The notes: generated by a model from the letters alone, not told the origin. Shown: positions 20,375 to 38,275, counted from the first letter of the stretch. The stretch: DNA of 64,000 nt from an uncultured bacterium (GCA_903861205.1 CAIOTC010000016.1:10243-74242); one strand, 5' to 3'. Translations and numbers: made by a program.

Positions 20375-20446
20375 GGCCTGGTAGCCAAGTAGAAAGGCGT
20401 TCCTCTGCAAAAGGAATATGCGCGGGTGCGATTCCCGCCCAGGCCT
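20375..20446 (+). tRNA. tRNA-Cys (GCA)
   Basis: Acceptor ggcctgg/ccaggcc, anticodon loop ctGCAaa, T-arm gcgggtgcgattcccgc, discriminator U. CCA is not encoded. Confidence 0.75.
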
Positions 20447-20477
20447 CAGAAAAAGCAAAACTTTTTCTAACAAGTTT

Positions 20478-20559
20478 GCCCGAGTGGCGGAATTGGCATA
20501 CGCGCACGACTTAAGATCGTGTTCCGAAAGGAATGTGGGTTCGATGCCCACCTCGGGCA
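20478..20559 (+). tRNA. tRNA-Leu (TAA)
   Basis: Acceptor gcccgag/ctcgggc, E. coli-like D-arm tggcggaattggcatacgcg, anticodon stem cacga/tcgtg with loop ctTAAga, long variable arm ttccgaaaggaa, T-arm gtgggttcgatgcccac. The anticodon loop is uninterrupted, so there is no intron. Confidence 0.8.
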
Positions 20560-20612
20560 CTTTGAAAAGAAAAACTGTAAATGAAAATTTCTTTAAGATA
20601 TGGACTCATGAA

Positions 20613-21302: not shown

Positions 21303-22943
21303 TTATGCTATAAATATATTATTGCACCCGTAGCTCAGCAGGTAGTAGCAGCTCGCTCTTAACGAGACGGTCGTTGGTTCGATTCCAACCGGGTGCACCA
21401 TAGTAGAATTTGGAGTATCAATTAGCTGTTTTAGCGTGTAAATATGGGCTGTTTTTGTGGTTCCAAATGCCGAATAGTCGTATAAAACGCCTTCTGGAAA
21501 AATCATCTCTTGAAACTTAATCTTATCGGTCAGTTTTACCTCGTACCAAAGCTTGTAAATGTTGACCATAAAGTACAGGCAGTAGTTGACGCAAGTTTCC
21601 ACATCAAATTCCTCGATCTGCAAGTCATTCCGGTTTAATCGGAGTACGGTTATTTTTTCTTTGATGCGATCCAGCTCCTCTTTGGCCGTCTCACTATCAA
21701 AGACATTTTGTTTGGTTAATTCAACGACTCTCACTTTCTCCTCCTCAACTTTCTCAATGTTCCGGTCGATGGTAGCTATGTCGGTATTGAGTTCAGTGTG
21801 CTTGCCTTCCCAATAATCAATAATTAAAGATCGGAACATGCCCATTTCCTCTTTCTTGGGAGCAAGCCGAGTAAGAAATTCCATGAAATGTTCCTCGAAC
21901 ACTTCTTTCTTGACGCTTTTCTTGTGGCACTTGGCACAGTGGTAATAGGCATAGCGACCGCCCAGCTGGCCTCGTGACCAGCTTCCGGTAAATCTGCCAC
22001 CGCACACGCACCGGGCAGTCACTCGGAGAGGAAAGTCTGGATTGAGTGCGCGTTTCGGATGGTTGGTGAGTCGGCCACTTTTAGTGCGTATATAAAACTG
22101 GACCCGTTCAAATAGTTCGGTAGTAATCAACGGCTCAAACACGCCCTGGTTTTCTTTGCCTTTATGCATGAAGGTGCCAGTATAGATTTTGCTTCGAAGC
22201 ATTTTGTGGATGACCTGCTGTCTGATTTTATTTCCTTTACCAGTAGTGAATCCTAACTGATTGGCCATTCTGGTGATCTCCGACTCTTTGTAAATTCCTT
22301 TGGCGTATTCCTCAAAAAGTTTTTTCACCATCGGCGCACGTTCCGGATCGGGTACGATAGTTTTATATCCGCCCGGCTTCATGACATTGTTATAGCCAAC
22401 CGGGGCGACCCATGAAATCTCTCCTTTGCTCACTCTTTTATTTATGCCGTCTTTGGTGCGTTCGCTTTTGGCATCGTTATCAAACTGGGCAAACGAGGCC
22501 ATGACGTTTTCCAAAAGTTTGCTCGTGGAGTTGTCACCGCCGATCGGTTCGGTCACCGAGTAAATTCTCACGCCATACTGGCTTAAGAGGGACCGGATCG
22601 CGACGTGGTCGGCCATGTTCCGGGCAATGCGATCTATTTTGTAAATTAGGACGGCATCTACTTTGCCTTTGTGTGTTCGGCAGTATTCCAAAAGTCTCAC
22701 TAGAGCTTTCCTATTCATGGTCTTGGCCGATTCACCGGCATCGATGAATGGTTCGCAGGCCAGTTTGAAGTGATGGTCAATAACCCATTTTCTGGAGAGA
22801 TCGACTTGCGACTCCAAGCTGAAGTTATGCTTGGCCTGTTCCTCGGTGGAGACACGTGCATAAATCACCGCTCGCATCGTTGTATTTTTTTGTTCAATCT
22901 GCTCATTCATAGGTTTTTCTTTGAAAGGGCTCGGCAACAACAC
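21303..22943 (-). CDS. Large serine recombinase (phage-integrase type)
   Basis: N-terminal resolvase catalytic block AVIYARVSTEEQ...SLESQ, a recombinase domain, and the zinc-ribbon CVCGGRFTGSW...YYHCAKCHKKS. The last about 25 codons are antisense to tRNA-Lys. Confidence 0.8.
   Translation of the reverse strand: MLLPSPFKEKPMNEQIEQKNTTMRAVIYARVSTEEQAKHNFSLESQVDLSRKWVIDHHFKLACEPFIDAGESAKTMNRKALVRLLEYCRTHKGKVDAVLIYKIDRIARNMADHVAIRSLLSQYGVRIYSVTEPIGGDNSTSKLLENVMASFAQFDNDAKSERTKDGINKRVSKGEISWVAPVGYNNVMKPGGYKTIVPDPERAPMVKKLFEEYAKGIYKESEITRMANQLGFTTGKGNKIRQQVIHKMLRSKIYTGTFMHKGKENQGVFEPLITTELFERVQFYIRTKSGRLTNHPKRALNPDFPLRVTARCVCGGRFTGSWSRGQLGGRYAYYHCAKCHKKSVKKEVFEEHFMEFLTRLAPKKEEMGMFRSLIIDYWEGKHTELNTDIATIDRNIEKVEEEKVRVVELTKQNVFDSETAKEELDRIKEKITVLRLNRNDLQIEEFDVETCVNYCLYFMVNIYKLWYEVKLTDKIKFQEMIFPEGVLYDYSAFGTTKTAHIYTLKQLIDTPNSTMVHPVGIEPTTVSLRASCYYLLSYGCNNIFIA
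21324..21400 (+). tRNA. tRNA-Lys (CTT), CCA encoded
   Basis: Acceptor gcacccg/cgggtgc, anticodon loop ctCTTaa, T-arm gttggttcgattccaac, then a-cca. It lies entirely inside the 3' end of the opposite-strand recombinase ORF. Confidence 0.75.
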
Positions 22944-25831: not shown

Positions 25832-27115
25832 ATGCTTAAAAACATAGTTTCTAACCAAAAACTGCAAAAAGAGCAACTTTTAACTCTTTCGTATATAGGC
25901 CGAACCAAAGAGCCATTTGCTAGAAAATGGCTGGATTCAAATTTAATAAAAGTTGTTTTGGGACCTCGCCGAGCTGGGAAATCGGTATTTTCTCTTATGC
26001 TCTTAAGGGATCGTCCGTTCATGTATTTCAACTTTGATGATGAGGTGTTGTCGAGTGCAGGCGGAATAGCCACCGATGAATTAATGAAAGAACTGCACGC
26101 CGCGTATGGCCAAGTGAAAACCGTTCTGTTTGATGAAATACAAAATCTTCCAAATTGGGAACTCTTTGTTAACCGGCTACACCGGGAAGGATACAATCTC
26201 GTACTCACCGGATCGAACGCACATCTCCTCTCAAAAGAACTCGCCACGCATTTGACCGGCAGACACATGCCGATAGAAATACTGCCGTTTGATTTCAATG
26301 AATTTCTCCGCGCAAAGAAGTTTCAAATAAACGAAGAGTACATTGCTCTACCGCAACAGCGCGGCGAGCTTTTAAATCTCATGGAAAACTATCTTGTCAA
26401 CGGCGGATTTCCTGAAGTGGCGGTTAATAACGTTGATCCTAAAGATTATCTTGAAGTCTTGTTTGATGCTTTGGTTTTCAAAGATGTGGTTAAAAGGCAC
26501 AGGGTTAAATTTTCGACTCAAGTAGCAAATTTGGGAGGACATTTAATAAACAATTTTGCAAATCTATACACAATACGAAAGATTCTTGAAATTCTAAATT
26601 TAAAGAGCGCATCCACTATAGAGAAGTACATAAAATACTTAGAAGAAGCATACCTCATATTTTCTCTGCTCCGGTATTCGCCAAAATCCATACAACGGAT
26701 AAAGTCTCCCCGAAAAGTGTACGCAGTCGACAACGGTTTTATAACCGCAAAAGCAATTCAACACTCTCCGGACAAAGGCAAACTCATGGAGAATCTTGTT
26801 TTTACCGAGCTGGTAAAACGAGGAGTGAAGCCAAATCGGGAACTGTTTTACTACAAAACCCGAAATGACAAGGAGATTGATTTTGTTGTAAAAAAAGGGA
26901 CGGAAGTAACCGAATTGATACAGGTATGCTACGAGTCCATAAATTCTGACGTTGAGCAGAGAGAAACAAAGGCGTTAGTTGAAGCAAGCGGCGAATTAAA
27001 AGTAGAAAAACTTACCGTACTTACCTGGGATGAAAAGCGAGAGATAAAAAGGGACGGCAAAGTAATACAGCTCATACCTCTCTGGGAATGGTTGCTTGAA
27101 GAGACTCAAAAATAA
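25832..27115 (+). CDS. AAA-type ATPase with DUF4143-like C-terminal domain
   Basis: Walker A VVLGPRRAGKS, Walker B VLFDEIQ. The overall layout matches the widespread ATPase/DUF4143 family. Confidence 0.65.
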   Translation: MLKNIVSNQKLQKEQLLTLSYIGRTKEPFARKWLDSNLIKVVLGPRRAGKSVFSLMLLRDRPFMYFNFDDEVLSSAGGIATDELMKELHAAYGQVKTVLFDEIQNLPNWELFVNRLHREGYNLVLTGSNAHLLSKELATHLTGRHMPIEILPFDFNEFLRAKKFQINEEYIALPQQRGELLNLMENYLVNGGFPEVAVNNVDPKDYLEVLFDALVFKDVVKRHRVKFSTQVANLGGHLINNFANLYTIRKILEILNLKSASTIEKYIKYLEEAYLIFSLLRYSPKSIQRIKSPRKVYAVDNGFITAKAIQHSPDKGKLMENLVFTELVKRGVKPNRELFYYKTRNDKEIDFVVKKGTEVTELIQVCYESINSDVEQRETKALVEASGELKVEKLTVLTWDEKREIKRDGKVIQLIPLWEWLLEETQK

Positions 27116-27119
27116 ATTT

Positions 27120-27578
27120 ATGCCACAGGAAATCGCCATCAAAAACTTAATATTCGTGGATTGCGAGGGACACGGACCGGCACCGACATTGAATGATCCG
27201 GTGGGTTTTGAATTTGGCGCGGTCGCGTATCCCTCAAAGCAAACATTTCATGGAACTGGGGCGACAAAAGAAACGTTTGAGGATTTCGACAAATGGATTT
27301 CGTCCGTGGTAGAGAAAGGTTTCAGGCCTCTATTTGTCAGTGATAATCCGGCATACGACTGGCAGTTCATAAACTATTACTTCCACTTGCATCTCGGCAA
27401 AAACCCGTTCGGCCACTCGGCACGAAGGATCGGTGATTTTTATGCCGGACTTGTCGGTGACTTTACCAATGCGAGCTCATGGAAAAAGCTACGGGTTACG
27501 GCGCATGATCACAATCCGGTAAACGATGCTATGGGTAATCTCGAGGCATTCGAGAGGATACTAAGCGGAGAAAGATAA
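27120..27578 (+). CDS. DEDDh 3'-5' exonuclease domain protein (DnaQ-like)
   Basis: FVDCEGHG (Exo I), VSDNPAYDWQFI (Exo II), HDHNPVNDA (Exo III, H-x4-D). Starts TAAatttATG directly after the ATPase stop. Confidence 0.6.
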   Translation: MPQEIAIKNLIFVDCEGHGPAPTLNDPVGFEFGAVAYPSKQTFHGTGATKETFEDFDKWISSVVEKGFRPLFVSDNPAYDWQFINYYFHLHLGKNPFGHSARRIGDFYAGLVGDFTNASSWKKLRVTAHDHNPVNDAMGNLEAFERILSGER

Positions 27579-27583
27579 AATAT

Positions 27584-27775
27584 ATGCCAAAGGAAATCGC
27601 CAACAAAATCAAAGGAGAGACTTACTACAAATGCGCTCATTGCGGAGATGAGATTTTTTGGAACACCCATAAAAAATTTACTTACTGCAAGTGCAAGAAA
27701 ATCTGGGTTGATGGTTGCGAGGATTATGTCCGGGTTGGTGGCAACGAGGAAGACCGTAAGGTGATCAAAAAATAA
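27584..27775 (+). CDS. Small zinc-ribbon protein (CxxC...CxC)
   Basis: YYKCAHCGDEIFWNTHKKFTYCKCKK. It shares its first about 27 nt with the flanking genes. Confidence 0.5.
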   Translation: MPKEIANKIKGETYYKCAHCGDEIFWNTHKKFTYCKCKKIWVDGCEDYVRVGGNEEDRKVIKK

Positions 27776-27779
27776 ATTT

Positions 27780-30101
27780 ATGCCCAAAGAAGCCGCCAAC
27801 AATCAAAATCAGACATTCACCGAGCAGGACGCTCGTATTGTTATTAATCGTAAACTTCAGGATGCTGGATGGATTTTGGAGGGACCGGACAAAAATGTTC
27901 TGACTGAACAACACTCCGAAGCTGGTTTTATGGACTATCTCTTACTGGACCGGAATGGTCGTAATCTTGCGCTAGTAGAAGCAAAGAAAGATACGATTGA
28001 TCCATACACGGCAAAGAATCAGGCACGCGGTTATGCGGATGCAAACAAATGCAGGTATGTATTTCTCGCTAATTCCGAACAGCTGTATTTTTGGGACATT
28101 GAGGATGGTGATGCAAATCCGATTGAACGCTTTATTTCTCCTCAAGATTTGCAACGTCGGCACGACCTCAAGCTATCTCGCAAACCCATCTCATCAGTGC
28201 CACATGATACCAAGATTTCTGATCGGCCGTATCAAGTCGAAGCTTCAAATATCATTGCCAAAGAATACGACGAGGGCAAACGTTCGTTTCTTTTGGAAAT
28301 GGCAACGGGGACCGGTAAGACTCGATTAGCCGCGGCTATCATTGACCGTTTTCTTAAAGCTCATCAGGCAGAGCGAATACTTTTTATCGTTGATCGAATA
28401 GAACTTGCTAAACAAACGCTGGATGCTTTTCAAGTTGCCTTCAAAGATGACTACCGCGCTGTTCGTTATAAACCCGGCAAACATGCGGTATTTGGTGGGG
28501 CAAATATTGTTGTCGCTACAATCCAAAGTTTGAATATTCACTTCAAAAAAGATTTTACGCCTGGCTATTTCGATCTGGTTTTTAACGACGAAGCCCATCG
28601 ATCTATTTATGGTGAACTGCCACGTCAGGTGGTGGAATATTTTCAAGCAGTTCGGATAGGCCTTACCGCTACTCCAAACGATTTTCTCAAAAATATCGAT
28701 GTTGAGAAATTGCAGGACAATGATCCACTGAAGCTGGAGTATCGCTACACGCGCGATACTTACAAGCACTTCGGATGCGAAATGAGCACCCCCACGTTCC
28801 GCTATACCATTCAGGATGGTGTTCGCGAGGGGTTCTTGGTTGCTCCCAAAATTGCCCGAATGGTTTCTTTAATTACTAAAGAAGCAGTATCCGAGGAGGG
28901 TTGGAAAATTGAGATAGACGGAGAAGATTACACATATAGAATCTCTCAGCTTGAAAAACAGGTACTCATACCAAAGCGCAATGAGCTTATCTGCCGACAG
29001 TTTTTGGAGAACGCACTAAAAACTCCGGACGGTGCAATTGGTAAATCGATTATTTTTGCGGTCTCACAAAATCATGCTGTTGCTCTTGCTCGAGAACTGA
29101 ATCGTCTAACTCCTGAACATAATGGCAAATTTGCGGAAGTCATCACCTCTCGTGTTAAAGGAGCTTCTGATCTCGCTAAACAATTCCGCAAAGATGAAAA
29201 CTTCTATCCTCGCGTGGCGGTAAGTGTAGACATGCTCACAACTGGCTTTGATTGTCCGGAAGTATTGAATATCGTCCTTGCTCGTCCGATCGCCTCGCCG
29301 ACCTCATACATTCAGATCAAGGGTCGCGGCACTCGCAAATACACCTTTCCGGACGGGACTGAGAAAAAGCAATTTCTAATCCACGACTTTTGTGAAGTAG
29401 TTAAATATTTTGAGGAAGAATATGACTTTGAAGCCCCTCTCCCAACTCCAACCGGCGGTACTGGGACCGGCGGAGGAACGCCGCCCCCACCTCCACCGCC
29501 CGTGGAAGTAAAAACGTATGAAGGTGCAGATGTGCTGGCTTTTACCGAGATGATGGAGATCGGCCCGGAGGGAGAAAAAGTTGATCGTCTAAGCTACATC
29601 ACAAAGTGGGAGAAAACCATCAAACAGGTTATTGCCGAAAACCCCGGCTTTGAAGAAAAAATCAAAGTGGGCGGTGAAGACGAAGAAATAAGCGAGTACT
29701 TGAGAGTAAATGTGTTTGATAAACCCACTGAATTTTTCAATGAACGCAATCTTTCGCGTGCTTATAGAGTATTTGCTGACCTATTGGATTATGTTCGGGC
29801 TGGACTTGGCATTGAAAAGCTACCAACGAGAGAAGAGCAACTCACAGAACTTATTGAGAGCATTAAAGCTGACCATGATCTTGATCTCGAGCAAGCACGG
29901 CTATTAAAAATTCTCGTTCGTCAGCTAAGTCAGAGCCCTCGTCTTATCACGCAGTTTGAGCAGGGCGATTATTCATTCCTTGATCAGCCGCCGTTTACGC
30001 AATTCGGTGGCACGCGTATGTATGTGTCCCGTTTTGATGGCAAGATAAAACCGGTATTTGAAGCCGTGCGAACCAGTCCGGCTTTTACCATAGTCCAATA
30101 A
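27780..30101 (+). CDS. hsdR: Type I restriction enzyme R subunit (HsdR)
   Basis: N-terminal PD-(D/E)xK nuclease MDYLLLDRNGRNLALVEAKK. SF2 helicase motifs EMATGTGKT, FNDEAHR, LTATP. A Pro/Gly linker PTPTGGTGTGGGTPPPPPPP and a C-terminal region follow. Confidence 0.85.
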   Translation: MPKEAANNQNQTFTEQDARIVINRKLQDAGWILEGPDKNVLTEQHSEAGFMDYLLLDRNGRNLALVEAKKDTIDPYTAKNQARGYADANKCRYVFLANSEQLYFWDIEDGDANPIERFISPQDLQRRHDLKLSRKPISSVPHDTKISDRPYQVEASNIIAKEYDEGKRSFLLEMATGTGKTRLAAAIIDRFLKAHQAERILFIVDRIELAKQTLDAFQVAFKDDYRAVRYKPGKHAVFGGANIVVATIQSLNIHFKKDFTPGYFDLVFNDEAHRSIYGELPRQVVEYFQAVRIGLTATPNDFLKNIDVEKLQDNDPLKLEYRYTRDTYKHFGCEMSTPTFRYTIQDGVREGFLVAPKIARMVSLITKEAVSEEGWKIEIDGEDYTYRISQLEKQVLIPKRNELICRQFLENALKTPDGAIGKSIIFAVSQNHAVALARELNRLTPEHNGKFAEVITSRVKGASDLAKQFRKDENFYPRVAVSVDMLTTGFDCPEVLNIVLARPIASPTSYIQIKGRGTRKYTFPDGTEKKQFLIHDFCEVVKYFEEEYDFEAPLPTPTGGTGTGGGTPPPPPPPVEVKTYEGADVLAFTEMMEIGPEGEKVDRLSYITKWEKTIKQVIAENPGFEEKIKVGGEDEEISEYLRVNVFDKPTEFFNERNLSRAYRVFADLLDYVRAGLGIEKLPTREEQLTELIESIKADHDLDLEQARLLKILVRQLSQSPRLITQFEQGDYSFLDQPPFTQFGGTRMYVSRFDGKIKPVFEAVRTSPAFTIVQ

Positions 30102-30105
30102 ATTT

Positions 30106-31584
30106 ATGGCACTTCAATTCACAAATTCAGATATAAAACAAAAAGTAGATCGCATTATGGACGAGCTTTTTGCTGGTGGCGTAAATAACCCCATGACTGC
30201 TATTGAGCAAGTGAGCTATCTGATGTTTTTAAAATCTCTAACTGAACTTGATGAACACCAGCAGAAGATCGCTGAACTATCCGGCAAAAAATACGAGAGT
30301 ATATTTAACGGTAAAATCAGCAAATTCGGCTGGCGTGTTTTGAGCCGATTGTCCGGAGATGAACTGTATAACACGCTCACAGAAGTGTTTGAACATTTAC
30401 ATGAACTGCCAAATCTTACCCAAACTGGCAAGACGCTTTTTCGGCAGGCGCATCTTAAAATCTACAATCGACCAACACTCAAGTCGGTAGTGAGTATTAT
30501 CGACGGAATGGATTTCAACAACACTGAAAAATATGACACCGATGTTAAGGGCGACATGTATGAGTATCTTTTAAATCGTATCGCGGTCTCCGGTACAAAT
30601 GGCCAATTTCGCACACCACGCCATATTATCAAGATGATGATTGAGCTGGTAAAACCAAAACCCTCGGACCTCATTCTCGATCCTGCTTGTGGTACAGCTG
30701 GTTTTCTTATTGAAGCCTACAAATATATTCTCCGTGCCAACACGAGCGAAGAAGAGCTCTCTAGTGGCCATGACACCGGAGACAAGCTCACACAAGCCCA
30801 GCACGAATTTTTACGCACGAAGGCTATCAACGGTTTCGATAACGATGCCGACATGATTAAGGTGGCGATTATGAACCTCTATCTCCATGATCTTTCTCAG
30901 TCCAACGTTCTAAATTTTGATCCCCTTACTCTTCCTGAAGAGAAGAAGCGCAAGTATGACCTCGTGCTCGCTAACCCTCCATTTGCCGGGACTATCAATT
31001 CCGAAGCAATTCAGGAGGATATAAGCCTGACCACCTCAAAAACCGAATTACTCTTTTTGAAATACATGTATGACCATTTGGTGGATGGCGGTCGCTCGGC
31101 GGTAATCGTTCCCGAAGGAGTTTTGTTTGGTTCAACCGGAGCACACAAGAAAATGCGTGAGCTTTTGGTGGATACCTGCAAAATTGATGCCGTTGTCAGC
31201 TTGCCGTCCGGAGTCTTTAAGCCATACGCCGGAGTGAAGACGGCGATTATTTTCTATACCAAAGGCGGTAAAACCGACAAAGCTTGGTTTTACGAAGTTA
31301 TTGGTGACGGATTCACCCTTGATGATAAACGCCAGCCGGACGAGAAAAATAATAATCTCAAGGACTTGCCGACGGCATACGAGAAAAAAGAAGTCAGTCC
31401 TTGCAGTTGGTTTGCCGCGCGCGAGCAGATTATTGCCGAGGATTACAATCTTACCGCTTCACGCTACAAGCCGGTAACAGTTGACCAAACAAGTCATCGC
31501 GATCCGAAAGAGATCATCGCCGAAGTTCAAGAACTTGAAGCTGAGATTGTCGATGGACTTAAAAAGCTTGGCAACAAAATATGA
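30106..31584 (+). CDS. hsdM: Type I restriction-modification methyltransferase subunit (HsdM, N6-adenine)
   Basis: Motif I LDPACGTAGFL, motif IV LANPPFAG. Confidence 0.9.
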   Translation: MALQFTNSDIKQKVDRIMDELFAGGVNNPMTAIEQVSYLMFLKSLTELDEHQQKIAELSGKKYESIFNGKISKFGWRVLSRLSGDELYNTLTEVFEHLHELPNLTQTGKTLFRQAHLKIYNRPTLKSVVSIIDGMDFNNTEKYDTDVKGDMYEYLLNRIAVSGTNGQFRTPRHIIKMMIELVKPKPSDLILDPACGTAGFLIEAYKYILRANTSEEELSSGHDTGDKLTQAQHEFLRTKAINGFDNDADMIKVAIMNLYLHDLSQSNVLNFDPLTLPEEKKRKYDLVLANPPFAGTINSEAIQEDISLTTSKTELLFLKYMYDHLVDGGRSAVIVPEGVLFGSTGAHKKMRELLVDTCKIDAVVSLPSGVFKPYAGVKTAIIFYTKGGKTDKAWFYEVIGDGFTLDDKRQPDEKNNNLKDLPTAYEKKEVSPCSWFAAREQIIAEDYNLTASRYKPVTVDQTSHRDPKEIIAEVQELEAEIVDGLKKLGNKI

Positions 31585-31585
31585 T

Positions 31586-32758
31586 ATGGCAACAAAATGG
31601 AAACAATTCAATCTGTCGGATATCACTACAATCTCTGAGCATAGAGTATCTCATTTCGATGGAGAAAAAGACTATATTGCGACTGGTGATATATATTTGA
31701 ACAAAATTATCGGTAATCAGCGAGTGAGTTACGAGAATCGGCCAAGTCGTGCCGATTTAATCATGAGTGAAAACGATGTGCTGTTTGCCAAAATGAAAGA
31801 TACGGTAAAAGTTTTGGTCGGCTCAAAAGATACCTCGGATAAGATATTTTCGACTGGTTTCTACATCCTAACGCCGCACAAAGATGTTTCGAAAGAATTC
31901 CTATATTTCAATTTTCTGTCTGATGATTTCAATCGCCAAAAGAATTTACTCTGCACCGGGGCAACAATGTCTGGCTTGAATAATGTTGGGTTAAAAAAAA
32001 TAACTCTTCAACTTCCTGTAAAAAGTGACGGAAGTCCTGACATTGATGAGCAGAAACGGATCGTCGCTATGCTTGAAGAAGCGGAAACATTAAAAAAGAA
32101 ACGTGCTGAAGCAGATCAGAAAATGAATGAGTTGGCCCCAGCACTTTTCTCAGAGATGTTTAGTGGAAATAAATTCGATGATCCTAAGCTGGGGACATAT
32201 ATTACGAACTTAACGAGTGGTGCTCGTGGATGGGCAAAGTATTACACTGGCGTGCCTGGCTACAAATATATTCGTATTCAGAATGTAAAAAACGCTAAGT
32301 TACATTTCGATGACGTGCAATATGTTGAGGTGCTGGATTCTGCCGAATCAAAAAGGATAAAAGTACAAGAGGGTGATCTGCTTATCAGTATTACGGCTGA
32401 TCTGGGTCGTACTGCTGTAGTTGATAGAAAAACCGCAAATGAAGGTGCCTATATAAACCAGCACATTGCACTGGTACGGCTTAATAATGAGTACAACCCT
32501 CTGTTTGTAGCTCACTATCTTGAAAATGATGGCAAGGGACAATTTTTGAAATACGGACAAGCCGCCTCAAAAAAGGGCTTAAATTTTGACTCTATAAGAT
32601 CACTCAGGATTCCGAAACCACCTATTGAATTGCAAAACAGTTTTGTAGATAAGGTAAACGAAATTGAGATGCAAAAAGAGAAGCAAAAACAATCCGCCAT
32701 TCAGCTGGAAGTTCTTTTCTCATCGCTATTGTCGAGAACTTATAGTGGTCAATTATAA
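31586..32758 (+). CDS. hsdS: Type I restriction-modification specificity subunit (HsdS, two target-recognition domains)
   Basis: ATG at 31586 overlaps the hsdM TGA (ATGATATGG). Repeated TRD/coiled-coil architecture and the conserved C-terminal SRTYSGQL. Confidence 0.8.
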   Translation: MATKWKQFNLSDITTISEHRVSHFDGEKDYIATGDIYLNKIIGNQRVSYENRPSRADLIMSENDVLFAKMKDTVKVLVGSKDTSDKIFSTGFYILTPHKDVSKEFLYFNFLSDDFNRQKNLLCTGATMSGLNNVGLKKITLQLPVKSDGSPDIDEQKRIVAMLEEAETLKKKRAEADQKMNELAPALFSEMFSGNKFDDPKLGTYITNLTSGARGWAKYYTGVPGYKYIRIQNVKNAKLHFDDVQYVEVLDSAESKRIKVQEGDLLISITADLGRTAVVDRKTANEGAYINQHIALVRLNNEYNPLFVAHYLENDGKGQFLKYGQAASKKGLNFDSIRSLRIPKPPIELQNSFVDKVNEIEMQKEKQKQSAIQLEVLFSSLLSRTYSGQL

Positions 32759-32760
32759 TT

Positions 32761-33657
32761 ATGTCGACTATATCTGCAACAAGAAGAGGATTTTTATATC
32801 AAGATCGTTTTGCAACCGCGACCTATCTTGAGCAGTGGCAAAGTAAGAATATCAAGCAGTTTTTCATTGATTATCCATTACCAAATCAAAAATCAATTGA
32901 TGTCCGGCATATTGATGTTTTGGATCAAGAAAATGTATATGAGGTAAAATCTGGCGAAGAATTCAAAAAAGATAAGCGCAAAAAAGAGTCATCAGGGATA
33001 AGAGATGCACTAATAAACTTAAAAGAATATTTTGATTCAAGAAATTCATGTTTACTAAATTTAGTGATTCGAAAGGGTTTTAGAGGCAACATAACCACTT
33101 ATTGGGATCATATAACACAAGTTCAGACGCATTCTTTTTCACTACCGCAAACAAAAACTCAAGTTACGTGGTTGTTCAATAAATTACTATTACCTGGAAT
33201 TAATTCCCATAAAGAATTATTTGATTTTTGTAAAATCGTAAAAGTTGCTGACTTTGCTGACGACGAACCGAATAATGGCAATGATCCATTCCCAGATATT
33301 GATGACTTTGTTATGGGGAAAATAACGGATATAACGAAGGAATTTAACGCACAAGTGTCTTGTGTTGAATATCCAGATCAAATTTTGATGAATGACTTAT
33401 ATCACAAATGTAGATTATATGCTGGAACAGGAGAGGATGTGCATGAGATTTTTACTTCTATCATAATTGATTTTATTACACACAGAGTTTTTCTAGATGC
33501 AAACTATACCCCCAATTCAAATAGAGGTAAGAGTAGAGATGACATAAAGAAAGAAATCGATAAAAAAGTCAATCAATATTTGAATGGAAACTTGGCGGCG
33601 AATATGAATAGTACGAACGCAGATCCACGTCTTACAAACGAAGGAAAAACACCATGA
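32761..33657 (+). CDS. Uncharacterised protein with predicted PD-(D/E)xK-like nuclease core
   Basis: N-terminal helix RRGFLYQDRFATATYLEQW, then hydrophobic strand plus D (HIDVLDQ) and E-V-K (NVYEVKSGEE). Start is 3 nt after the hsdS stop; stop overlaps the next start (ATGA). Confidence 0.4.
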   Translation: MSTISATRRGFLYQDRFATATYLEQWQSKNIKQFFIDYPLPNQKSIDVRHIDVLDQENVYEVKSGEEFKKDKRKKESSGIRDALINLKEYFDSRNSCLLNLVIRKGFRGNITTYWDHITQVQTHSFSLPQTKTQVTWLFNKLLLPGINSHKELFDFCKIVKVADFADDEPNNGNDPFPDIDDFVMGKITDITKEFNAQVSCVEYPDQILMNDLYHKCRLYAGTGEDVHEIFTSIIIDFITHRVFLDANYTPNSNRGKSRDDIKKEIDKKVNQYLNGNLAANMNSTNADPRLTNEGKTP

Positions 33658-36600
33658 AAAAAATAACGAGCGGACAAGCTAATATAGCAGGAATAAATGC
33701 ACAAGCATGGGCTTCGATGTCTCTGTTTTTACAGTATTTGCGTGATCCACGATTTTCGCATATTCATCTCGAAGTACCTAACTTTCAAGACTTTAATCTT
33801 GTTTTTAATGATGGTCATAAAATTATTTGCGAATCAAAGGATAGAAAAGTTAATTTTAATTACGGACATTTAAGGCCTATCTTAGAGAATATAAACAGGA
33901 GCAAGGCTATTGGTGATCAAGATGAAATTCTTATCGTGTGTCGTAACGCAAATAAAAGCTTAATCTCTGACGTGGAGCATGTAAAGTATTTTGAAGAACT
34001 AAAAAATAAATTTAAGAAAAAAGGTTATGCCGGGACAGAAATTGCATTGCTTCCGAAGGTAAAATTTTGGGTAGTGCCACCCTCTTTTAATTCAGAGGTA
34101 ATTTATTCTTTATTTTCGGAATTAATAAATTTTTGGCTTCCTCCCGAGGATGTCAAGAGATTTATTGACAGTATTTTGATCCAAAAGATTTACAAAGGCT
34201 CGGCAAGTGGGGCTACTTATAGTCGTTCCGATATTCTTAAAGAAATAGAAGAATTCAAAAAAGAAGTTCAGAAAGGGAGTGATTATTTCAATTTACGAAC
34301 AAAGAAAGATAAGCAATTCAAGGAGCTAGAAAAGATTGTTAAGAGCAATGGAAAAGTCACTCTAGGGAGCCGTTCGCTTTCTGCTTTTTCAACCCGATGG
34401 GATTTAATGTCATTTGCGATGGATAGACTCAAGGCTAGGAGCGATCTTGATTTAAAAAAATGGGGTGATCTATGGCAGTTGAACCGGGTTTATTATTTTA
34501 CCTTCGGTATTTTCCACGTCTTTGAAGCCAACCTACAAACAGACAAAAATCGGAAGTATATTTTGGGCTATATAAAAAAATACACAAAAACAATCCGAGG
34601 TTTTTACCGATCTGATTTTTTTGATGTGGATGTCGTAAAGATTGTCACCAAAATTATAGAGGGGCCTGATGGTGAAAAATACTTCAATGATGCTTTTGCT
34701 ATCATCAAGGATTTAATCACTTTTAACGAAAAGGAGTTTTTCTATCTTAAGGATAGCGGTTATGATCGTGGCGAATGGGAAAAAGGAGAACTTTGTAAGC
34801 TCCTACATAAGATTTACACCCGTGCAGATGCGGTTCTGAAGCAAAAGATTTTCGATCTGCTTGTTTCGGGATTTAATGTCACAGAGGACGACGGAGAATT
34901 CATTCACCATGCACCGACTGATGTGTACGGGATACTTCGTGAATGGCTGGATGACGATTTCAAGGGCAGATTTAAGAAAATAGTGAAACTCGCCAGCGAT
35001 CAATATCAGCGTTACTACAAGAAATTTGGTAGCAAAATTGAGTTTAAGGGCTGGGAACATATGGGTGGAGGCACATCCTTTGGTCCGGGTGGCCACCATG
35101 TTGGGGATCGCCATTTTGTCGGCTTTATCCTTGCACCAGCTATTCGTAAATATTACGACACGGATAAAATTAAGGGGTGGAATTTTATCAAACAGCAGTG
35201 CATTACCACAACAGCAAAGGTCAGCAAAACGAGACCGGATTTTCTTAATCGCTCAGTATACGAAATAGTCTTAAGCCGTTATGCAGATTCCAATAAGAAA
35301 ATATCAAATGAGGCGTTTGGCATCTTGAAAGAGTTTATTCTTTCCAGAAGAGGCATACCCCACAAGACCGACTTAATCTACCAAGCGGTCGTTGGTTCTG
35401 ATATGCCGGATGAAAAAAAATGGAGACTGGTTGAAATTACCACTAAGAAATATGGGATACCGGTCAATCCTTTTGCCGAGCTGATAGTCACTGATCTTGC
35501 AAAGAAGAGTTACGGACCGGCAAAAACCACACTGAAGCAGTGGTTTGCCGATCCAAAGTATTATAAGAACTTCAGATTTGATCTCGACTCAGTTTCGAGT
35601 ATTAAGGCGCTCCTTGATAGCGACCTAACTTTTGCTGTCGAATTATTCAAGGCACTTATCACAAGTGACTATATAAAAAATGGAAAGAGCGACCACTTTG
35701 GTGCTTATACTGTCGCGGCTTTGTTAAACGATATCATCAGGAGAGATTACGCTATGGGATTGTCCATAATTCGCCTACTGGAGAAGGAGGAGAAGTTGAG
35801 CGATGACCAGCAAATTATTTATTCATTCAGCCTGTTCAACCATCACGGAAACGATGATTCAGATGATCAGGAATTGTTATTAAAAACATATGATGAAGTA
35901 GTTGACCCATTCTTAAAAAAATACAGCGATGATATCTCTAAAATCTGCCAAAGATTAACAGATGCCAATTGCAGAGAAGCTTTTGTTCAGTTTGCGGCTA
36001 GACTGGCGGTCAAGAAAAAAATGGCAGATGCATTAAGGATTGTTCGTACTTTCGTAAACGATCCCGATCCATATCTCCCAGGCAAAGACCCCCATGACCT
36101 CGAAGATAAATACAATGAGCATAAGAGCGTGATGGAAGGTAAAGAGCCGAGCTCAATTAGGTCGGTTCGTGGTTGGTGTGGTTGGGTTCTTATGAAATGT
36201 TCCGTTCTTGATGGACGAGATCAGGTTCCAGAAGTTATTGAGCTTACTAAAAAGTTAATCAACGATGAAAATTACTATGTGATTCACATGGCTTGTTTTG
36301 CTCTCGGTCAAATAGCAAGAAATCGCCTTACTGTTTTACCGTCTGATAAAAACACACTCTTTTTTAATGATGATAAAGAAAAAGCTCTCCGCATGGCTAA
36401 AGAAGTTGAGGTCATTGCTTTCGGCCTTTTGGACAGTCTTATTTCGTGGCTACCGTTAGTGCAGAAAGCTATGACCAAGAGTGTTTTGCATGTATTTGAC
36501 CCACTCAGAGCACTCAACGAAAAAGACTCGCTTAGACTTATAACCGCCCTCGCCAAACTTCCAGCTGACGCGACGGAGGAATCTGCCCCATTATTTGTTT

Positions 36601-37295
36601 TTTGTGCTGAATTCAGAAAAAATGCTTATAAGGACTGGCGATTTGGTATGCCTGGGTTATATGACGATCTTGGGCCGGAAAAATATGATGAGAAGAAATT
36701 TAAAGCTATTTTGATGGACACTATCAAAGAGCTACAAAAGAAGGACTCGGACAATTGTTTCCGGTTTGCTTCATCTGTTGAGCATGCAATGAGAGAAGCC
36801 TCACCAGAAAACGGCGAGCTCGAAAAGAATACAGAGATTGCTCTTGAATATCTCGATCTACTTTCAAATGTTTATGCCCATAATGTTTTCAACTTGATCT
36901 ATCAGATTATGGAGACAAAATTCGGTACTCCGGATAAATATGTTGAGAAGTGGTATAGCTTATTGATCAAATGTTTGAGTGTTGAAAAAGGATTCTACGA
37001 AGAGCAGGCTAAAAAAGGCAACATGGCAAATGTCTATTGGTATCCTGCTCTATATCACTCTCGAATAATGGAGTTAGTCCATGAAAAGCTTGGTCAAGAC
37101 AAATTTATGCAAGCGGCCAAGATATTCTTTTCTTTCCCGAAAGAACTCGATCTCCACGAGACAGCTAACTTGGTTTCAATTATCCAAGAGCTAGCGAAAA
37201 CCGATAAAGATGCAAAGGCGATTATAAAAACACTTATCGATAAAAATCCGAGCAAATATTGGTCGTTGAAAGATAAATCTAAAAAATCAAAATGA
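33654..37295 (+). CDS. Large (1213 aa) uncharacterised protein: N-terminal module paralogous to ORF 32761 fused to about 1100 aa of alpha-helical repeat-like sequence
   Basis: The N-terminus SGQANIAGINAQAWASMSLFLQYL...NLVFNDGHKIICESKDRK repeats the helix / D / E-x-K layout of the preceding ORF. The remainder has no recognisable catalytic motif. ATGA overlaps at both ends. Confidence 0.4.
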   Translation: MKKITSGQANIAGINAQAWASMSLFLQYLRDPRFSHIHLEVPNFQDFNLVFNDGHKIICESKDRKVNFNYGHLRPILENINRSKAIGDQDEILIVCRNANKSLISDVEHVKYFEELKNKFKKKGYAGTEIALLPKVKFWVVPPSFNSEVIYSLFSELINFWLPPEDVKRFIDSILIQKIYKGSASGATYSRSDILKEIEEFKKEVQKGSDYFNLRTKKDKQFKELEKIVKSNGKVTLGSRSLSAFSTRWDLMSFAMDRLKARSDLDLKKWGDLWQLNRVYYFTFGIFHVFEANLQTDKNRKYILGYIKKYTKTIRGFYRSDFFDVDVVKIVTKIIEGPDGEKYFNDAFAIIKDLITFNEKEFFYLKDSGYDRGEWEKGELCKLLHKIYTRADAVLKQKIFDLLVSGFNVTEDDGEFIHHAPTDVYGILREWLDDDFKGRFKKIVKLASDQYQRYYKKFGSKIEFKGWEHMGGGTSFGPGGHHVGDRHFVGFILAPAIRKYYDTDKIKGWNFIKQQCITTTAKVSKTRPDFLNRSVYEIVLSRYADSNKKISNEAFGILKEFILSRRGIPHKTDLIYQAVVGSDMPDEKKWRLVEITTKKYGIPVNPFAELIVTDLAKKSYGPAKTTLKQWFADPKYYKNFRFDLDSVSSIKALLDSDLTFAVELFKALITSDYIKNGKSDHFGAYTVAALLNDIIRRDYAMGLSIIRLLEKEEKLSDDQQIIYSFSLFNHHGNDDSDDQELLLKTYDEVVDPFLKKYSDDISKICQRLTDANCREAFVQFAARLAVKKKMADALRIVRTFVNDPDPYLPGKDPHDLEDKYNEHKSVMEGKEPSSIRSVRGWCGWVLMKCSVLDGRDQVPEVIELTKKLINDENYYVIHMACFALGQIARNRLTVLPSDKNTLFFNDDKEKALRMAKEVEVIAFGLLDSLISWLPLVQKAMTKSVLHVFDPLRALNEKDSLRLITALAKLPADATEESAPLFVFCAEFRKNAYKDWRFGMPGLYDDLGPEKYDEKKFKAILMDTIKELQKKDSDNCFRFASSVEHAMREASPENGELEKNTEIALEYLDLLSNVYAHNVFNLIYQIMETKFGTPDKYVEKWYSLLIKCLSVEKGFYEEQAKKGNMANVYWYPALYHSRIMELVHEKLGQDKFMQAAKIFFSFPKELDLHETANLVSIIQELAKTDKDAKAIIKTLIDKNPSKYWSLKDKSKKSK

Positions 37296-37804
37296 CAATC
37301 TTTTACATCATCATCGGCATTATCATAGTCACCGCTATAGTAATCGCTATCTCGCGTGGAGGTCTTGCTGATGTAGAGGAAAAAGCTAAATATCGCTATA
37401 ACCGCAAGAACTTTTTTCTTACTCGAGCGGAGCATGAATGCTACGACGCTCTCGTCGAAGCTGTCGGTGCCGAGTATCACATCTTTGCCCAAGTGCATTT
37501 GCCTACTTTGGTCGATCATACAGTTCGAGGACAGGACTGGCGTGCGGCTTTGGCGCATATCAATCGGAAGTCTGTTGATTTTGTGCTTTGTGACAAAGCA
37601 TATCTCTCGCCAAAACTTGCTATCGAGCTTGATGATAAATCGCACGAACGCGCGGACCGGCAGGAACGTGATCGTGAAGTAGAACGTATCTTGCGTGAAG
37701 CCGGTGTATCGCTCTTGAGACTTGAAAATCGCGGCAGTTTTAGCCCCAGCGAATTGGCTCAAAAAATCAAAGAGACACTTAACCCCAAGTCGACATCATT
37801 ATGA
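37292..37804 (+). CDS. Membrane-anchored DUF2726-like (nuclease-related) protein
   Basis: N-terminal TM. YRYNRKNFFLTRAEHECYDAL...IFAQVHL...DFVLCDK...AIELDDKSH matches the DUF2726 pattern. ATGA overlap with the upstream gene. Confidence 0.5.
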   Translation: MTIFYIIIGIIIVTAIVIAISRGGLADVEEKAKYRYNRKNFFLTRAEHECYDALVEAVGAEYHIFAQVHLPTLVDHTVRGQDWRAALAHINRKSVDFVLCDKAYLSPKLAIELDDKSHERADRQERDREVERILREAGVSLLRLENRGSFSPSELAQKIKETLNPKSTSL

Positions 37805-38274
37805 AAATCAACAACACATTCAAACTCATCATTTCGCTTATTATCCCGCAGTTGGCAGGAGGACTGGGTAGCTACTTTACCATCGGTTCGGTGAAAGATT
37901 GGTATCCGGTGCTGGAGAAGCCCGTTCTCAATCCACCGGCATGGATATTCGGACCGGTTTGGACGACGTTGTTTCTTTTGATGGGCTATGCACTTTATCT
38001 TGTCTGGAAGGACGAGAGTGGAAAAAGCAAAGGCCTGGCCTATTGGGCTTTTGGAATTCAAATGGTTTTAAACGCGCTATGGTCGATCATCTTTTTCGGC
38101 CTGCATAGCCCGGGCGGAGCACTTTTTGAGATGATTTTTCTTTGGCTAGCCATTCTCGCCACGATCATCGCTTTTGCTAAAATATCAAAACCGGCCGCAT
38201 GGCTCCTCGTGCCCTATATTCTCTGGGTCAGCTTTGCCGGGTATCTTAACTACGCCATCTGGGCATTAAATTAA
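37801..38274 (+). CDS. tspO: TspO/MBR family tryptophan-rich sensory protein
   Basis: Five TM helices with Trp/Pro-rich loops (NPPAWIFGPVWTTLF...AYWAFGIQMVLNALWSIIFF). ATGA overlap with the upstream gene. Confidence 0.75.
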   Translation: MKINNTFKLIISLIIPQLAGGLGSYFTIGSVKDWYPVLEKPVLNPPAWIFGPVWTTLFLLMGYALYLVWKDESGKSKGLAYWAFGIQMVLNALWSIIFFGLHSPGGALFEMIFLWLAILATIIAFAKISKPAAWLLVPYILWVSFAGYLNYAIWALN

Positions 38275-38275
38275 A

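What the first reader, a model, noticed from the sequence alone, without database searches (positions are those of the whole stretch)
25832..30101. Three consecutive genes start with the same about 27-nt sequence and peptide (MPKEIANK-like) behind a conserved TAAATTTATG junction
The DEDDh exonuclease (27120), the zinc-ribbon gene (27584) and hsdR (27780) begin ATGCCACAGGAAATCGCCATCAAAAAC, ATGCCAAAGGAAATCGCCAACAAAATC and ATGCCCAAAGAAGCCGCCAACAATCAAAATC. Each is placed 4-5 nt after the previous stop, inside an aaTAAatttATG junction; hsdM has the same junction but not the shared start. Direct repeats covering the junction and the first nine codons of unrelated proteins are not expected from descent. 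They suggest serial cassette insertion or recombination at a fixed site, as in a shufflon or integron, or a shared translational coupling and enhancer element. The AAA(DUF4143) ATPase, the exonuclease and the zinc-ribbon gene appear to be accessory modules grafted onto the RM operon.
Basis: seen in the sequence. Interest (0 to 1): 0.55.

Follow-up and report, generated by a model that had tools for sequence, protein, structure and literature searches.

The report
Shared gene-start linker joining defence-island modules
Three neighbouring, unrelated genes begin with copies of one short DNA sequence, which in many related uncultured bacteria (Patescibacteria) marks the exact point where defence-gene modules are gained, lost or swapped in frame, so a small piece of coding DNA acts as a connector for building defence islands.

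Summary
A 35-nt direct repeat (stop codon, AT-rich spacer, ATG and 7-8 codons) occurs three times, at 27108, 27572 and 27768, with none expected by chance and none elsewhere in the 64 kb.

The leader (ATGCCAAAGGAAATCGCCAACAA) is native to the small zinc-ribbon gene DUF7695: 70 of 120 homologues start with it. Only the nearest relatives of the exonuclease (6/120) and of HsdR (4/120) carry it.

Scans of genome and metagenome contigs found the same leader on DUF7695 (85), the exonuclease (30), HsdM (6) and HsdR (6). These genes sit behind at least nine unrelated upstream gene families.

Related loci differ from the window by exactly one leader-bounded unit, the 464-nt exonuclease cassette. Some pairs have 96-99.6% identical upstream genes.

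The point where the leader meets the body of the recipient gene varies from nt 18 to 33. All copies are direct, and no recombinase sits at the site, so this is not an integron or a shufflon.

Synonymous sites in the leader are nearly invariant, and the RNA is unstructured.

Best reading: a portable gene-start linker, spread by short-homology recombination and kept because it preserves coupled translation. The RM operon is the variable cargo, and AAA-(exonuclease)-DUF7695 is the scaffold. This is a new variant of boundary-sequence modular shuffling.

The parts
27108..27142 (+). Repeat copy 1: the end of the AAA gene, TAA, ATTT, then ATG and the first 7-8 codons of the exonuclease gene (MPQEIAIK)
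27572..27606 (+). Repeat copy 2: the end of the exonuclease gene, TAA, AATAT, then ATG and the first codons of DUF7695 (MPKEIANK). This is the native, consensus form of the leader, ATGCCAAAGGAAATCGCCAACAA
   Evidence: native status
27768..27802 (+). Repeat copy 3: the end of DUF7695 (VIKK*), ATTT, then ATG and a leader fused to HsdR's own N-terminus (MPKEAAN|NQNQTF)
30097..30112 (+). Junction-only copy (AATAAATTTATG) between hsdR and hsdM, with no leader
27145..27608 (+). The 464-nt leader-bounded unit (exonuclease body, stop, spacer and next leader). It is absent, to the nucleotide, from L055, L098, L070 and L091
   Evidence: The same indel occurs in other contexts: L237/L142 and L245/L048
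25832..27115 (+). AAA_14 + DUF4143 ATPase-nuclease (PADLOC candidate PDC-S01), the first gene of the scaffold
   Evidence: Pfam; PDLC04787, E 9e-104
27120..27578 (+). 152-aa 3'-5' exonuclease-like protein, a member of a large Patescibacteria family. It is an optional cassette
27584..27775 (+). 63-aa DUF7695 zinc-ribbon gene, the native owner of the leader and the usual adaptor gene in front of RM modules
27780..30101 (+). hsdR (type I restriction subunit; best NCBIfam match is the EcoAI family, below cut-off). Its start carries the third leader copy
30106..31584 (+). hsdM
31481..32758 (+). hsdS. These are the ORF limits; the true start is uncertain and probably lies near the hsdM stop
32761..38274 (+). 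The rest of the block downstream of hsdS: a 298-aa unknown protein, a 1213-aa unknown protein with a HEAT-like repeat, a DUF2726 protein and TspO. The window segment from about 27737 to 38655 (from inside the 3' end of DUF7695) has no counterpart in L008. In L055, TspO follows DUF7695 directly
21303..22943 (-). Large serine recombinase abutting tRNA-Lys (21324-21400), the probable end of the island. No leader-like site is present here

Best explanation
The three repeats are paralogous copies of a portable gene start: the stop codon of the previous gene, a 2-15-nt AT-rich spacer, ATG, and the first 6-8 codons.

The element is native to the DUF7695 zinc-ribbon gene. DUF7695 usually sits directly in front of type I or type III RM modules, in a family of Patescibacteria defence islands built on a serine-recombinase element.

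Across this family the leader is the point at which modules are joined in frame. Upstream genes are swapped up to a few nt before the ATG. Downstream gene bodies are swapped 18-33 nt after it. The exonuclease gene behaves as a cassette flanked by two leader copies.

In the window the array reads leader-exonuclease, leader-DUF7695, leader::hsdR, where '::' marks an in-frame fusion.

Shown: the copies share DNA-level ancestry. The leader is native to DUF7695. Indels and module swaps are bounded by the leader in many independent genomes. Synonymous sites are nearly invariant. The RNA is unstructured.

Inferred: copies spread, and cassettes are gained or lost, by short-homology recombination or template switching between leader copies (19-37 nt of identity), not by a dedicated site-specific enzyme. 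Arrangements that survive are those that keep an open reinitiation start, with no Shine-Dalgarno sequence at canonical spacing, for tightly coupled genes.
For: Repeat statistics.

The leader is native to DUF7695. 70 of 120 homologues start with it, and their bodies are only 51-94% identical. Only 6 of 120 exonucleases and 4 of 120 HsdR proteins have it, and non-leader relatives of those two reach 93% and 87% identity.

The genome and metagenome scans found 127 leader-like gene starts (85 DUF7695, 30 exonuclease, 6 HsdM, 6 HsdR). The 98 whose upstream ORF could be read fall behind at least nine unrelated upstream families. Six families carry both exonuclease-first and DUF7695-first versions.

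Exact leader-bounded indel: the two matches of L055, L098, L070 and L091 to the window overlap by 27-33 nt, which equals the leader, so the window has an extra 464 nt. L237 and L142 share 96% of the last 245 nt of the upstream gene and a 94% identical zinc-ribbon gene, and differ by presence or absence of the exonuclease. L237 and L134 share 99.6% of the last 245 nt upstream, then similarity ends just after the leader.

Independent fusions at different points: HsdR after nt 21 or so; HsdM after codon 8 (L152, L213, L067) or codon 11 (L030, L078); a 16-codon mini-ORF in L181; a GIY-YIG fusion in L222.

Mosaic histories: the synonymous divergence (dS) of DUF7695 is 0.3-0.5, while the dS of the adjacent AAA gene is 1.3 (L098) or saturated (L070, L091).

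Synonymous diversity is 0.07-0.10 in leader codons 2-9 against 0.41 (exonuclease) and 0.28 (DUF7695) in the rest of each gene. Permutation gives p = 7e-5 and 0.017. The search pattern allowed all synonymous variants.

The junctions are less structured than shuffled sequence.

The same leader polymorphisms (AAG to CAG, ATC to GTC) occur on both exonuclease and DUF7695 leaders.
Against: No recombination intermediate was seen. None of 30 exonuclease loci shows a circle junction or a tandem exonuclease copy. The same-strain contigs L001-L007 show one arrangement only.

The leader copies in the window now share at most 11-19 nt of uninterrupted identity, which is short for RecA-type recombination.

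The hybrid-leader test for deletion products was inconclusive: the isoleucine form of codon 7 occurs in 8 of 51 DUF7695 genes that directly follow the upstream gene, against 1 of 13 that follow the exonuclease.

Gene-boundary breakpoints can also arise from random illegitimate recombination followed by selection.

Weak KEI-like N-termini on some non-leader relatives (MANKEIKNLIF; MSTKEINHNTT in L251) mean the direction and age of some transfers are uncertain.

Most loci were found by a leader pattern, so leader-less relatives are under-sampled.

The translational benefit is untested.
Confidence: 0.6

Rival explanations
1. A purely translational element. The leader is an optimal, unstructured reinitiation start for genes placed 4-5 nt after a stop codon without a well-spaced Shine-Dalgarno sequence. 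It is retained or copied only because it gives good coupled expression, and recombination at it is incidental.
For: Stop-start spacing is 4-5 nt and the upstream Shine-Dalgarno-like motifs are absent or badly spaced. The junction RNAs are less structured than 193-198 of 200 shuffles. Synonymous sites are nearly invariant while the adjacent non-coding spacer varies freely. Leader changes are mostly non-synonymous, so the peptide is not what is conserved.
Against: Selection for expression does not by itself create identical 23-nt sequences on four gene families. A copying mechanism is still needed. Most genes directly downstream of DUF7695 use the same junction without the leader (MASLNW.., MSTNYRE.., MQKQPKK..), and so does hsdM in the window. 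The leader is therefore not required for coupling. Leader-bounded indels and swaps show that it is a recombination boundary as well.
Confidence: 0.2
2. A dedicated cassette system. The leader is an attachment or cleavage site for a site-specific recombinase or a homing endonuclease, for example the island's serine recombinase or the small GIY-YIG genes found next to the leader. That enzyme would insert or excise [gene body + spacer + leader] cassettes, as an integron does.
For: The exonuclease and DUF7695 units are flanked by leader copies exactly as a Campbell-type single-crossover insertion at a repeated site would give. The leader DNA is extremely conserved while the flanks diverge. GIY-YIG genes lie 4-23 nt upstream of the leader, or fused to it, in 4 loci by the motif scan (L053, L109, L182, L222); L098 has one directly after DUF7695. 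That is a minority of the 125 loci. A serine-recombinase backbone recurs in several loci.
Against: Fusion points differ between events, from nt 18 to 33. The leader has no dyad symmetry or hairpin. There are no inverted copies, and no leader-like site at the island end next to the recombinase. Only two gene types are ever flanked on both sides. No circle junction was found. GIY-YIG genes are absent from the window and from most loci.
Confidence: 0.12
3. A functional N-terminal peptide. MPKEIANK would be a tag (for targeting, a degron, or a partner-binding motif) shared by proteins that must act together.
For: Three adjacent proteins of one operon share it.
Against: All differences between the copies in the window are amino-acid changes, with the synonymous sites identical. 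Across loci the peptide varies (P to T/S/L, K to Q/E, I to V, N to I/T, K to T/N) while the nucleotides are otherwise fixed. In L181 the leader heads a 16-codon mini-ORF. Most family members of the exonuclease, HsdR and HsdM lack it.
Confidence: 0.03
4. Chance similarity of AT-rich, low-complexity gene starts.
For: The spacer TAAATTTATG is AT-rich, and 2 of 100 shuffles reach three copies of it.
Against: None of 100 shuffles gives even one match to the 30-mer. The same 23-mer recurs at gene starts in more than 100 independent contigs.
Confidence: 0.01

Closest known systems
PeSL (promoter-early stem-loop) cassettes of T4-type phages (Arbiol et al. 2010, PMC2839356; Comeau et al. 2014, PMC4122927)
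   Same: A short conserved sequence is repeated at gene boundaries in hyperplastic regions. Insertions, deletions and replacements between relatives are bounded by the repeats. Recombination between nearby copies can loop out single genes.
   Different: PeSLs are intergenic promoter-plus-terminator units with a hairpin. The leader here lies inside coding sequence (ATG plus 6-8 codons), is unstructured, and joins genes in frame so that unrelated proteins share an N-terminal peptide. Mini-circles have been shown for PeSLs but not here. The host is a Patescibacteria genomic island, not a phage: the one match in viral contigs was a chance hit.
Integron gene cassettes (attI/attC with IntI)
   Same: Promoterless genes in one orientation are each followed by a copy of a repeated site. 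Arrays differ between relatives by whole cassettes.
   Different: There is no IntI-type tyrosine recombinase and no attC-like imperfect palindrome. The crossover position is variable. Only two internal cassette types occur. The repeat is part of the reading frame.
Shufflons and phase-variable hsdS inversion systems
   Same: Short repeats inside or next to RM or other variable genes reshuffle coding segments.
   Different: Those systems use inverted repeats and inversion by a dedicated recombinase. Here all copies are direct, hsdS is not involved, and the variation is gain, loss or replacement, not inversion.
Genomic islands that integrate into the 5' end of a gene and carry a replacement 5' end, such as dusA-specific islands (from my own knowledge, not checked here; the literature search for it failed)
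   Same: They produce direct repeats made of a gene's 5' coding end, flanking inserted DNA and keeping the target gene intact.
   Different: Those events are catalysed by an adjacent tyrosine integrase at a fixed core site and involve a whole island. Here the units are single genes inside an operon, with no adjacent integrase.
Defence hotspots flanked by conserved core genes in P2/P4-like elements, and boundary or linker sequences of lambdoid phages (from my own knowledge)
   Same: Variable defence cargo sits between conserved scaffold genes. Exchange occurs by recombination in the conserved flanks, and the breakpoints fall at gene boundaries.
   Different: Here the conserved flank shrinks to a 23-27-nt sequence that is itself the start of the next gene and has been copied onto the cargo genes.

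Membership tests
Integron | An IntI-type tyrosine recombinase next to the cassette array | tested here: not met
   Pfam scans of all neighbouring genes. The only recombinase is a large serine recombinase at 21303-22943, 4.2 kb away on the other strand.
Integron | attC sites: imperfect inverted repeats that fold into a hairpin at the 3' end of each cassette | tested here: not met
   The junction and leader regions fold at only -2 to -4 kcal/mol, weaker than most shuffles, and have no dyad. Rfam finds nothing there.
Integron | Arrays of many different cassettes, with recombination at one fixed position | tested here: not met
   Only the exonuclease and DUF7695 are flanked by leaders on both sides, in 23 multi-leader loci. 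Fusion points range over nt 18-33.
Shufflon / invertible RM specificity system | Inverted repeats and alternative orientations of the segments | tested here: not met
   A both-strand search finds three copies, all on the + strand. All related loci keep the same orientation.
Boundary-repeat modular shuffling (PeSL-like) | A short conserved sequence repeated at gene boundaries in a variable region | tested here: met
Boundary-repeat modular shuffling (PeSL-like) | Indels and replacements between relatives are bounded by the repeats | tested here: met
   L055, L098, L070, L091 against the window; L237/L142, L237/L134, L245/L048.
Boundary-repeat modular shuffling (PeSL-like) | The repeat is an intergenic promoter plus a stem-loop terminator | tested here: not met
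   The repeat is mostly coding (ATG plus 6-8 codons) and unstructured. The promoter scan tool was not run on it.
Boundary-repeat modular shuffling (PeSL-like) | Excised mini-circles formed by repeat-repeat recombination | not testable with these tools
   This needs reads or PCR. No contig with a circle-type exonuclease-to-exonuclease junction was found among 30 exonuclease loci.
Translationally coupled operon start | The start codon lies within a few nt of the upstream stop, on the same strand | tested here: met
   Spacers of 4, 5, 4 and 4 nt at 27115/27120, 27578/27584, 27775/27780 and 30101/30106.
Translationally coupled operon start | The leader measurably enhances reinitiation | not testable with these tools
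   Only indirect support: low structure and synonymous conservation.
Type I restriction-modification system | HsdR (nuclease + SF2 helicase), HsdM (N6-adenine methyltransferase) and HsdS (two target-recognition domains) encoded together | tested here: met
   Pfam ResIII, EcoEI_R_C, N6_Mtase, HsdM_N and Methylase_S. PADLOC REase_I, MTase_I and Specificity_I. The NCBIfam EcoAI equivalog score of 250 is below its cut-off of 550, so family IB membership is not established.
PADLOC candidate system PDC-S01 | A single AAA_14 + DUF4143 protein matching the PDC-S01 models | tested here: met
   PDLC04787, E 9e-104, over the full length; Pfam AAA_14 + DUF4143. Defence activity was not tested.

The most novel reading that the evidence does not exclude
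The leader is a true attachment site of an in-frame gene-cassette system specific to Patescibacteria defence islands. In this reading a dedicated enzyme, such as a GIY-YIG homing nuclease or the island's serine recombinase, recognises the 23-nt gene start. It drives excision and insertion of [gene body + stop + spacer + leader] units, so that every inserted gene automatically receives a working start codon and N-terminus.
Probability: 0.13. Interest if true: 0.85.

Novelty: new variant of a known kind. Interest (0 to 1): 0.6.

Why it matters
Defence islands are known to be mosaic, but the sequences at which modules are exchanged are rarely resolved.

Here a single 23-27-nt sequence is at once a start codon region, the N-terminus of unrelated proteins, and the crossover point for module exchange. 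It accounts, at nucleotide resolution, for how RM systems and accessory genes are combined in Patescibacteria (the candidate phyla radiation, CPR), organisms with tiny genomes and no cultured genetics.

It gives a searchable marker for finding new cargo genes in these islands: whatever follows the leader.

It explains spurious shared N-termini in annotations.

It offers a testable model of in-frame cassette exchange that needs no dedicated recombinase.

It also draws attention to DUF7695, a protein family for which a full-text search found no paper, as the usual adaptor gene in front of RM modules.

Tried and rejected
- **Viral contigs.** The leader pattern gave one hit, a chance match in a high-GC phage. 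The element is not phage-borne in that collection.
- **Rfam.** A scan of the whole window found only four tRNAs and no RNA family at the junctions.
- **att repeat.** A search for a repeat of the tRNA-Lys end elsewhere in the window found nothing longer than 13 nt. The island's other end was not defined this way.
- **Hybrid-leader test.** Deletion products should carry the exonuclease-type isoleucine at codon 7. The count was 8/51 for DUF7695 genes directly after the upstream gene against 1/13 for those after the exonuclease, which is not significant.
- **Exonuclease as a recent transfer.** Its synonymous divergence (dS) from the window is 0.5-1.8, so it is an old, strongly conserved gene and not a fresh arrival. 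Only DUF7695 looks recently shared, with dS of 0.3-0.5.
- **GIY-YIG as a general driver.** A GIY-YIG gene lies next to the leader in only 4-5 of 125 loci, and none is in the window.
- **The 4-nt-indel alignment of the hsdR and zinc-ribbon leaders** (AACAA[TCAA]AATC). I rejected it as coincidence, because AATCAAAATCAG is HsdR's own NQNQ, present also in relatives without the strict leader.
- **The apparent leader fragment in the long exonuclease-DUF7695 spacer** (TCGCCAATAAAATTT). It is only weakly supported, because the informative five bases vary between loci.
- **Type-1 versus type-2 DUF7695 identity.** The first 27 nt are 95% identical against 55% for the body, but both sets were found by the leader pattern, so I did not use this as independent evidence.
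- **Databases and literature.** PADLOC and the PDB gave nothing for DUF7695, and no paper mentions it.
- **L001.** Its first 206 nt are a chimeric contig end, not a structural variant.

Full report
**1. Observation**

The genes lie head to tail on the + strand:

| Gene | Coordinates |
|---|---|
| AAA_14/DUF4143 gene | 25832-27115 |
| 152-aa exonuclease-like gene | 27120-27578 |
| 63-aa DUF7695 zinc-ribbon gene | 27584-27775 |
| hsdR | 27780-30101 |
| hsdM | 30106-31584 |
| hsdS | ORF 31481-32758 |

Each gene from the exonuclease to hsdM starts 4-5 nt after the stop of the previous one.

The repeat finder returns one family of three 35-nt direct copies at 27108, 27572 and 27768, with copies 2 and 3 each 83% identical to copy 1. 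A degenerate 30-mer with up to three mismatches hits only these three places on either strand of the 64-kb window, with none expected from shuffles. TAAATTTATG occurs at 27113, 27773 and 30099, against 0.2 expected.

The exonuclease and zinc-ribbon leaders differ at three bases. All three change the amino acid, and every synonymous position is identical. The similarity is therefore in the DNA and is not a conserved peptide.

**2. Who owns the leader**

- **DUF7695.** 70 of the 120 best homologues start with the leader peptide (M-P-K-E-I-A-N-K), even though their bodies are only 51-94% identical to the window's protein.
- **Exonuclease.** Its family is large, with more than 3000 hits, mostly named as Patescibacteria. 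The conserved core begins at NLIFVDCEG. Only 6 of the 120 best hits carry the leader, and relatives 93% identical in the body lack it.
- **HsdR.** The conserved core begins at TEQDARIVINRKL. Some homologues start directly there, and those annotated as non-Patescibacteria (Nitrospirae, Geomonas) do. Only 4 of 120 hits, at 87-98% identity, have MPKE..NNQNQ.

The leader is therefore old and native in DUF7695, and a narrow, mosaic feature in the other two genes.

**3. The leader elsewhere**

A synonymous-neutral pattern (ATGCCNVARGARATHGCNAWYAA) was scanned over one genome per species. A second pattern was scanned over metagenome contigs. Together they gave 127 leader-like starts (23-mers within 5 mismatches of the consensus whose ORF matched one of four family motifs; most contigs carry Patescibacteria names or no name):

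| Gene family | Leader-bearing starts |
|---|---|
| DUF7695 | 85 |
| Exonuclease | 30 |
| HsdM | 6 |
| HsdR | 6 |

The other matches were not assigned to these four families; most lie in contigs named for unrelated phyla and are mid-ORF or head short ORFs.

The 98 starts whose upstream ORF could be read fall behind at least nine unrelated upstream gene families. These include AAA_14/DUF4143, a second 477-aa family, a family with AbiEii-like sequence features (judged by eye, not scanned), a family with a Fic-like HPF motif (also not scanned), and several unknowns. Six of the families have both an exonuclease-first and a DUF7695-first version.

DUF7695 is typically followed, 4-5 nt later, by the first gene of what look like type I or type III RM modules (judged from N-terminal motifs). 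It acts as the usual adaptor in front of RM cargo.

Viral contigs gave only a chance hit.

**4. Leader-bounded structural differences**

L055, L098, L070 and L091 carry AAA followed directly by DUF7695. Their two blastn matches to the window overlap by 27-33 nt, and that overlap is the junction plus leader. The window therefore differs by exactly 464 nt: the exonuclease body, its stop, the spacer and the next leader.

The same indel recurs in other contexts. L237 and L142 share a 96% identical upstream gene and a 94% identical DUF7695, and differ only by the exonuclease unit. L245 and L048 behave the same way behind a different upstream gene. L237 and L134 share 99.6% of the last 245 nt upstream, and then lose all similarity about 35-75 nt past the ATG, where a different DUF7695 subtype begins.

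Homology of L070, L091 and L098 to the window stops at 27777-27782, which is the ATG of hsdR.

L008 (AAA-exonuclease-DUF7695, with no RM) and L055 (AAA-DUF7695-TspO) show that the hsdRMS block and what follows it, roughly 27780-38655, is cargo. The scaffold exists without it.

**5. Independent fusions**

The leader is joined to recipient genes at different points:

- Exonuclease: after about nt 18 (MPKEIA|IKNLIF).
- HsdR: after about nt 21 (MPKEIAN|NQNQTF) in the window, L182 and L127/L166.
- HsdM: after codon 8 in L152, L213/L218 and L067.
- HsdM: after codon 11, with four codons of former upstream sequence read through, in L030 and L078.
- A 16-codon mini-ORF in front of a methylase-like gene in L181.
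- A GIY-YIG gene in L222.

These are documented.

In L127 (Parcubacteria GW2011_GWA2_43_13) the hsdR leader matches the DUF7695 leader at 23 of 24 nt. It is preceded by non-coding DNA that retains only ATCACAAATAAATT, the last bases of a DUF7695 gene.

Variable fusion points, direct orientation only, no hairpin and no adjacent recombinase all argue against an integron- or shufflon-type mechanism.

**6. Constraint on the leader**

Synonymous diversity was measured in sequences found with the synonymous-neutral pattern or by protein look-up:

| Gene | Leader codons 2-9 | Rest of gene | Sliding-window rank of the leader | Permutation p |
|---|---|---|---|---|
| Exonuclease | 0.07 | 0.41 | 4 of 140 | 7e-5 |
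| DUF7695 | 0.10 | 0.28 | 3 of 53 | 0.017 |

The non-coding spacer just upstream varies in length and sequence, even behind the same upstream gene. Leader changes that do occur are mostly amino-acid changes, and the same two variants appear on both exonuclease and DUF7695 leaders.

The junction RNAs fold at only -2 to -4 kcal/mol, which is weaker than 193-198 of 200 shuffles for the first two junctions.

This fits a nucleotide-level role as an open start region for reinitiation, homogenisation by exchange between copies, or both. It does not fit a peptide tag.

**7. Mosaic histories**

The synonymous divergence (dS) from the window is 0.3-0.5 for DUF7695 in L098, L070, L091 and L054. For the adjacent AAA gene it is 1.3 in L098 and saturated (3.3 or not computable) in L070 and L091; L054 carries a different upstream gene family. 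For the exonuclease it is 0.5-1.8. Neighbouring genes thus have different histories, as expected if they were joined by recombination at the junctions.

**8. Interpretation**

The best-supported reading has three parts:

- The leader is a portable gene-start linker, native to DUF7695, that has been copied onto adjacent genes.
- It now serves as the short homology at which modules of these islands are exchanged, inserted or deleted in frame.
- Selection favours products that keep a working coupled start.

Two rivals remain:

- A purely translational role explains the conservation, but not the copying or the bounded indels.
- A dedicated site-specific or homing mechanism is not excluded. GIY-YIG genes lie next to the leader in a few loci. 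However, the variable fusion points and the lack of any site symmetry argue against it.

I saw no recombination intermediates, and contigs from the same strain show a single arrangement. Ongoing activity is therefore unproven.

**9. Context and comparison**

The island lies next to tRNA-Lys and has a large serine recombinase at its end. The AAA_14/DUF4143 protein matches the PADLOC candidate PDC-S01, and the exonuclease matches a PADLOC exonuclease effector and a solved 3'-5' exonuclease, 7t2s.

Type I RM systems on genomic islands of Patescibacteria have been reported (PMC12455944). A full-text search found no paper that mentions DUF7695.

The closest described phenomenon is PeSL-mediated modular shuffling in T4-type phages (PMC2839356, PMC4122927). 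The present case differs in three ways: the repeat is coding, it is unstructured, and it acts in frame.

Noticed in passing
L135, L153, L182, L062, L245 (DUF7695 homologues); not in the window: DUF7695 genes in other loci carry one to three 30-39-nt insertions that are near-perfect hairpins (-10 to -26 kcal/mol). Each is a multiple of three and is read in frame, giving peptides such as IHPHTKGIFGVGA, YPIRE..SNGAS and VYPVGSRSDSFGE. They look like tiny palindromic mobile elements that insert in frame. Several lie 3-5 codons past the leader (insertion points at nt 30-41).
   Followed up: partly
L053 7474-7728, L109 5511-5795, L182 1914-2246, L222 3947-4258, L098 5294-5557: Small free-standing GIY-YIG nuclease genes sit 4-23 nt upstream of the leader, directly after DUF7695, or fused behind leader codon 11. 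This is a possible homing-endonuclease link to the recombination hotspot. They are present in only 4-5 of 125 loci.
   Followed up: partly
window 20375-21400: A LAGLIDADG endonuclease ORF (about 20484-21302) is wedged between tRNA-Leu(taa) and tRNA-Lys(ctt), downstream of tRNA-Cys. The serine recombinase gene ends at the tRNA-Lys gene, which suggests the island's integration site.
   Followed up: no
L003 (same strain, sample ERZ18625396), equivalent to window 27780-29778: One population variant has small indels that split hsdR into 377-aa and 260-aa ORFs (99.6% identity to the window). This may be an inactivated restriction subunit.
   Followed up: no
window 32761-37295; L127 6601-9410; L129 5264-6848; L182 7422-11944: The slot after hsdS is variable. 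It holds a 298-aa unknown protein here and in L182, a SLFN_AlbA_2 protein in L127, and an Abi_C protein in L129. It is followed by a conserved unknown protein of about 1210 aa with a HEAT-like repeat. This may be an RM-associated accessory system.
   Followed up: partly
L131, L159, L235, L054, L170 and others: the spacer between the exonuclease stop and the DUF7695 ATG: The spacer has a short form (4-6 nt, as in the window) and a long form (15 nt, TCGCCAATAAAATTT). The long form resembles leader nt 12-26 and could be a scar of an earlier leader duplication. The informative bases vary, so support is weak.
   Followed up: partly
L001 1-206: The first 206 nt of this otherwise identical contig are unrelated high-GC DNA. 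This is a chimeric assembly end, not a variant of the locus.
   Followed up: yes
L252 4001-5202: A leader-less relative of the exonuclease (MENKDIKNLIF) is followed through TAATTTATG by a different 58-aa CxxC protein and then TspO. This suggests an older exonuclease / small zinc protein / TspO neighbourhood that predates the leader.
   Followed up: no
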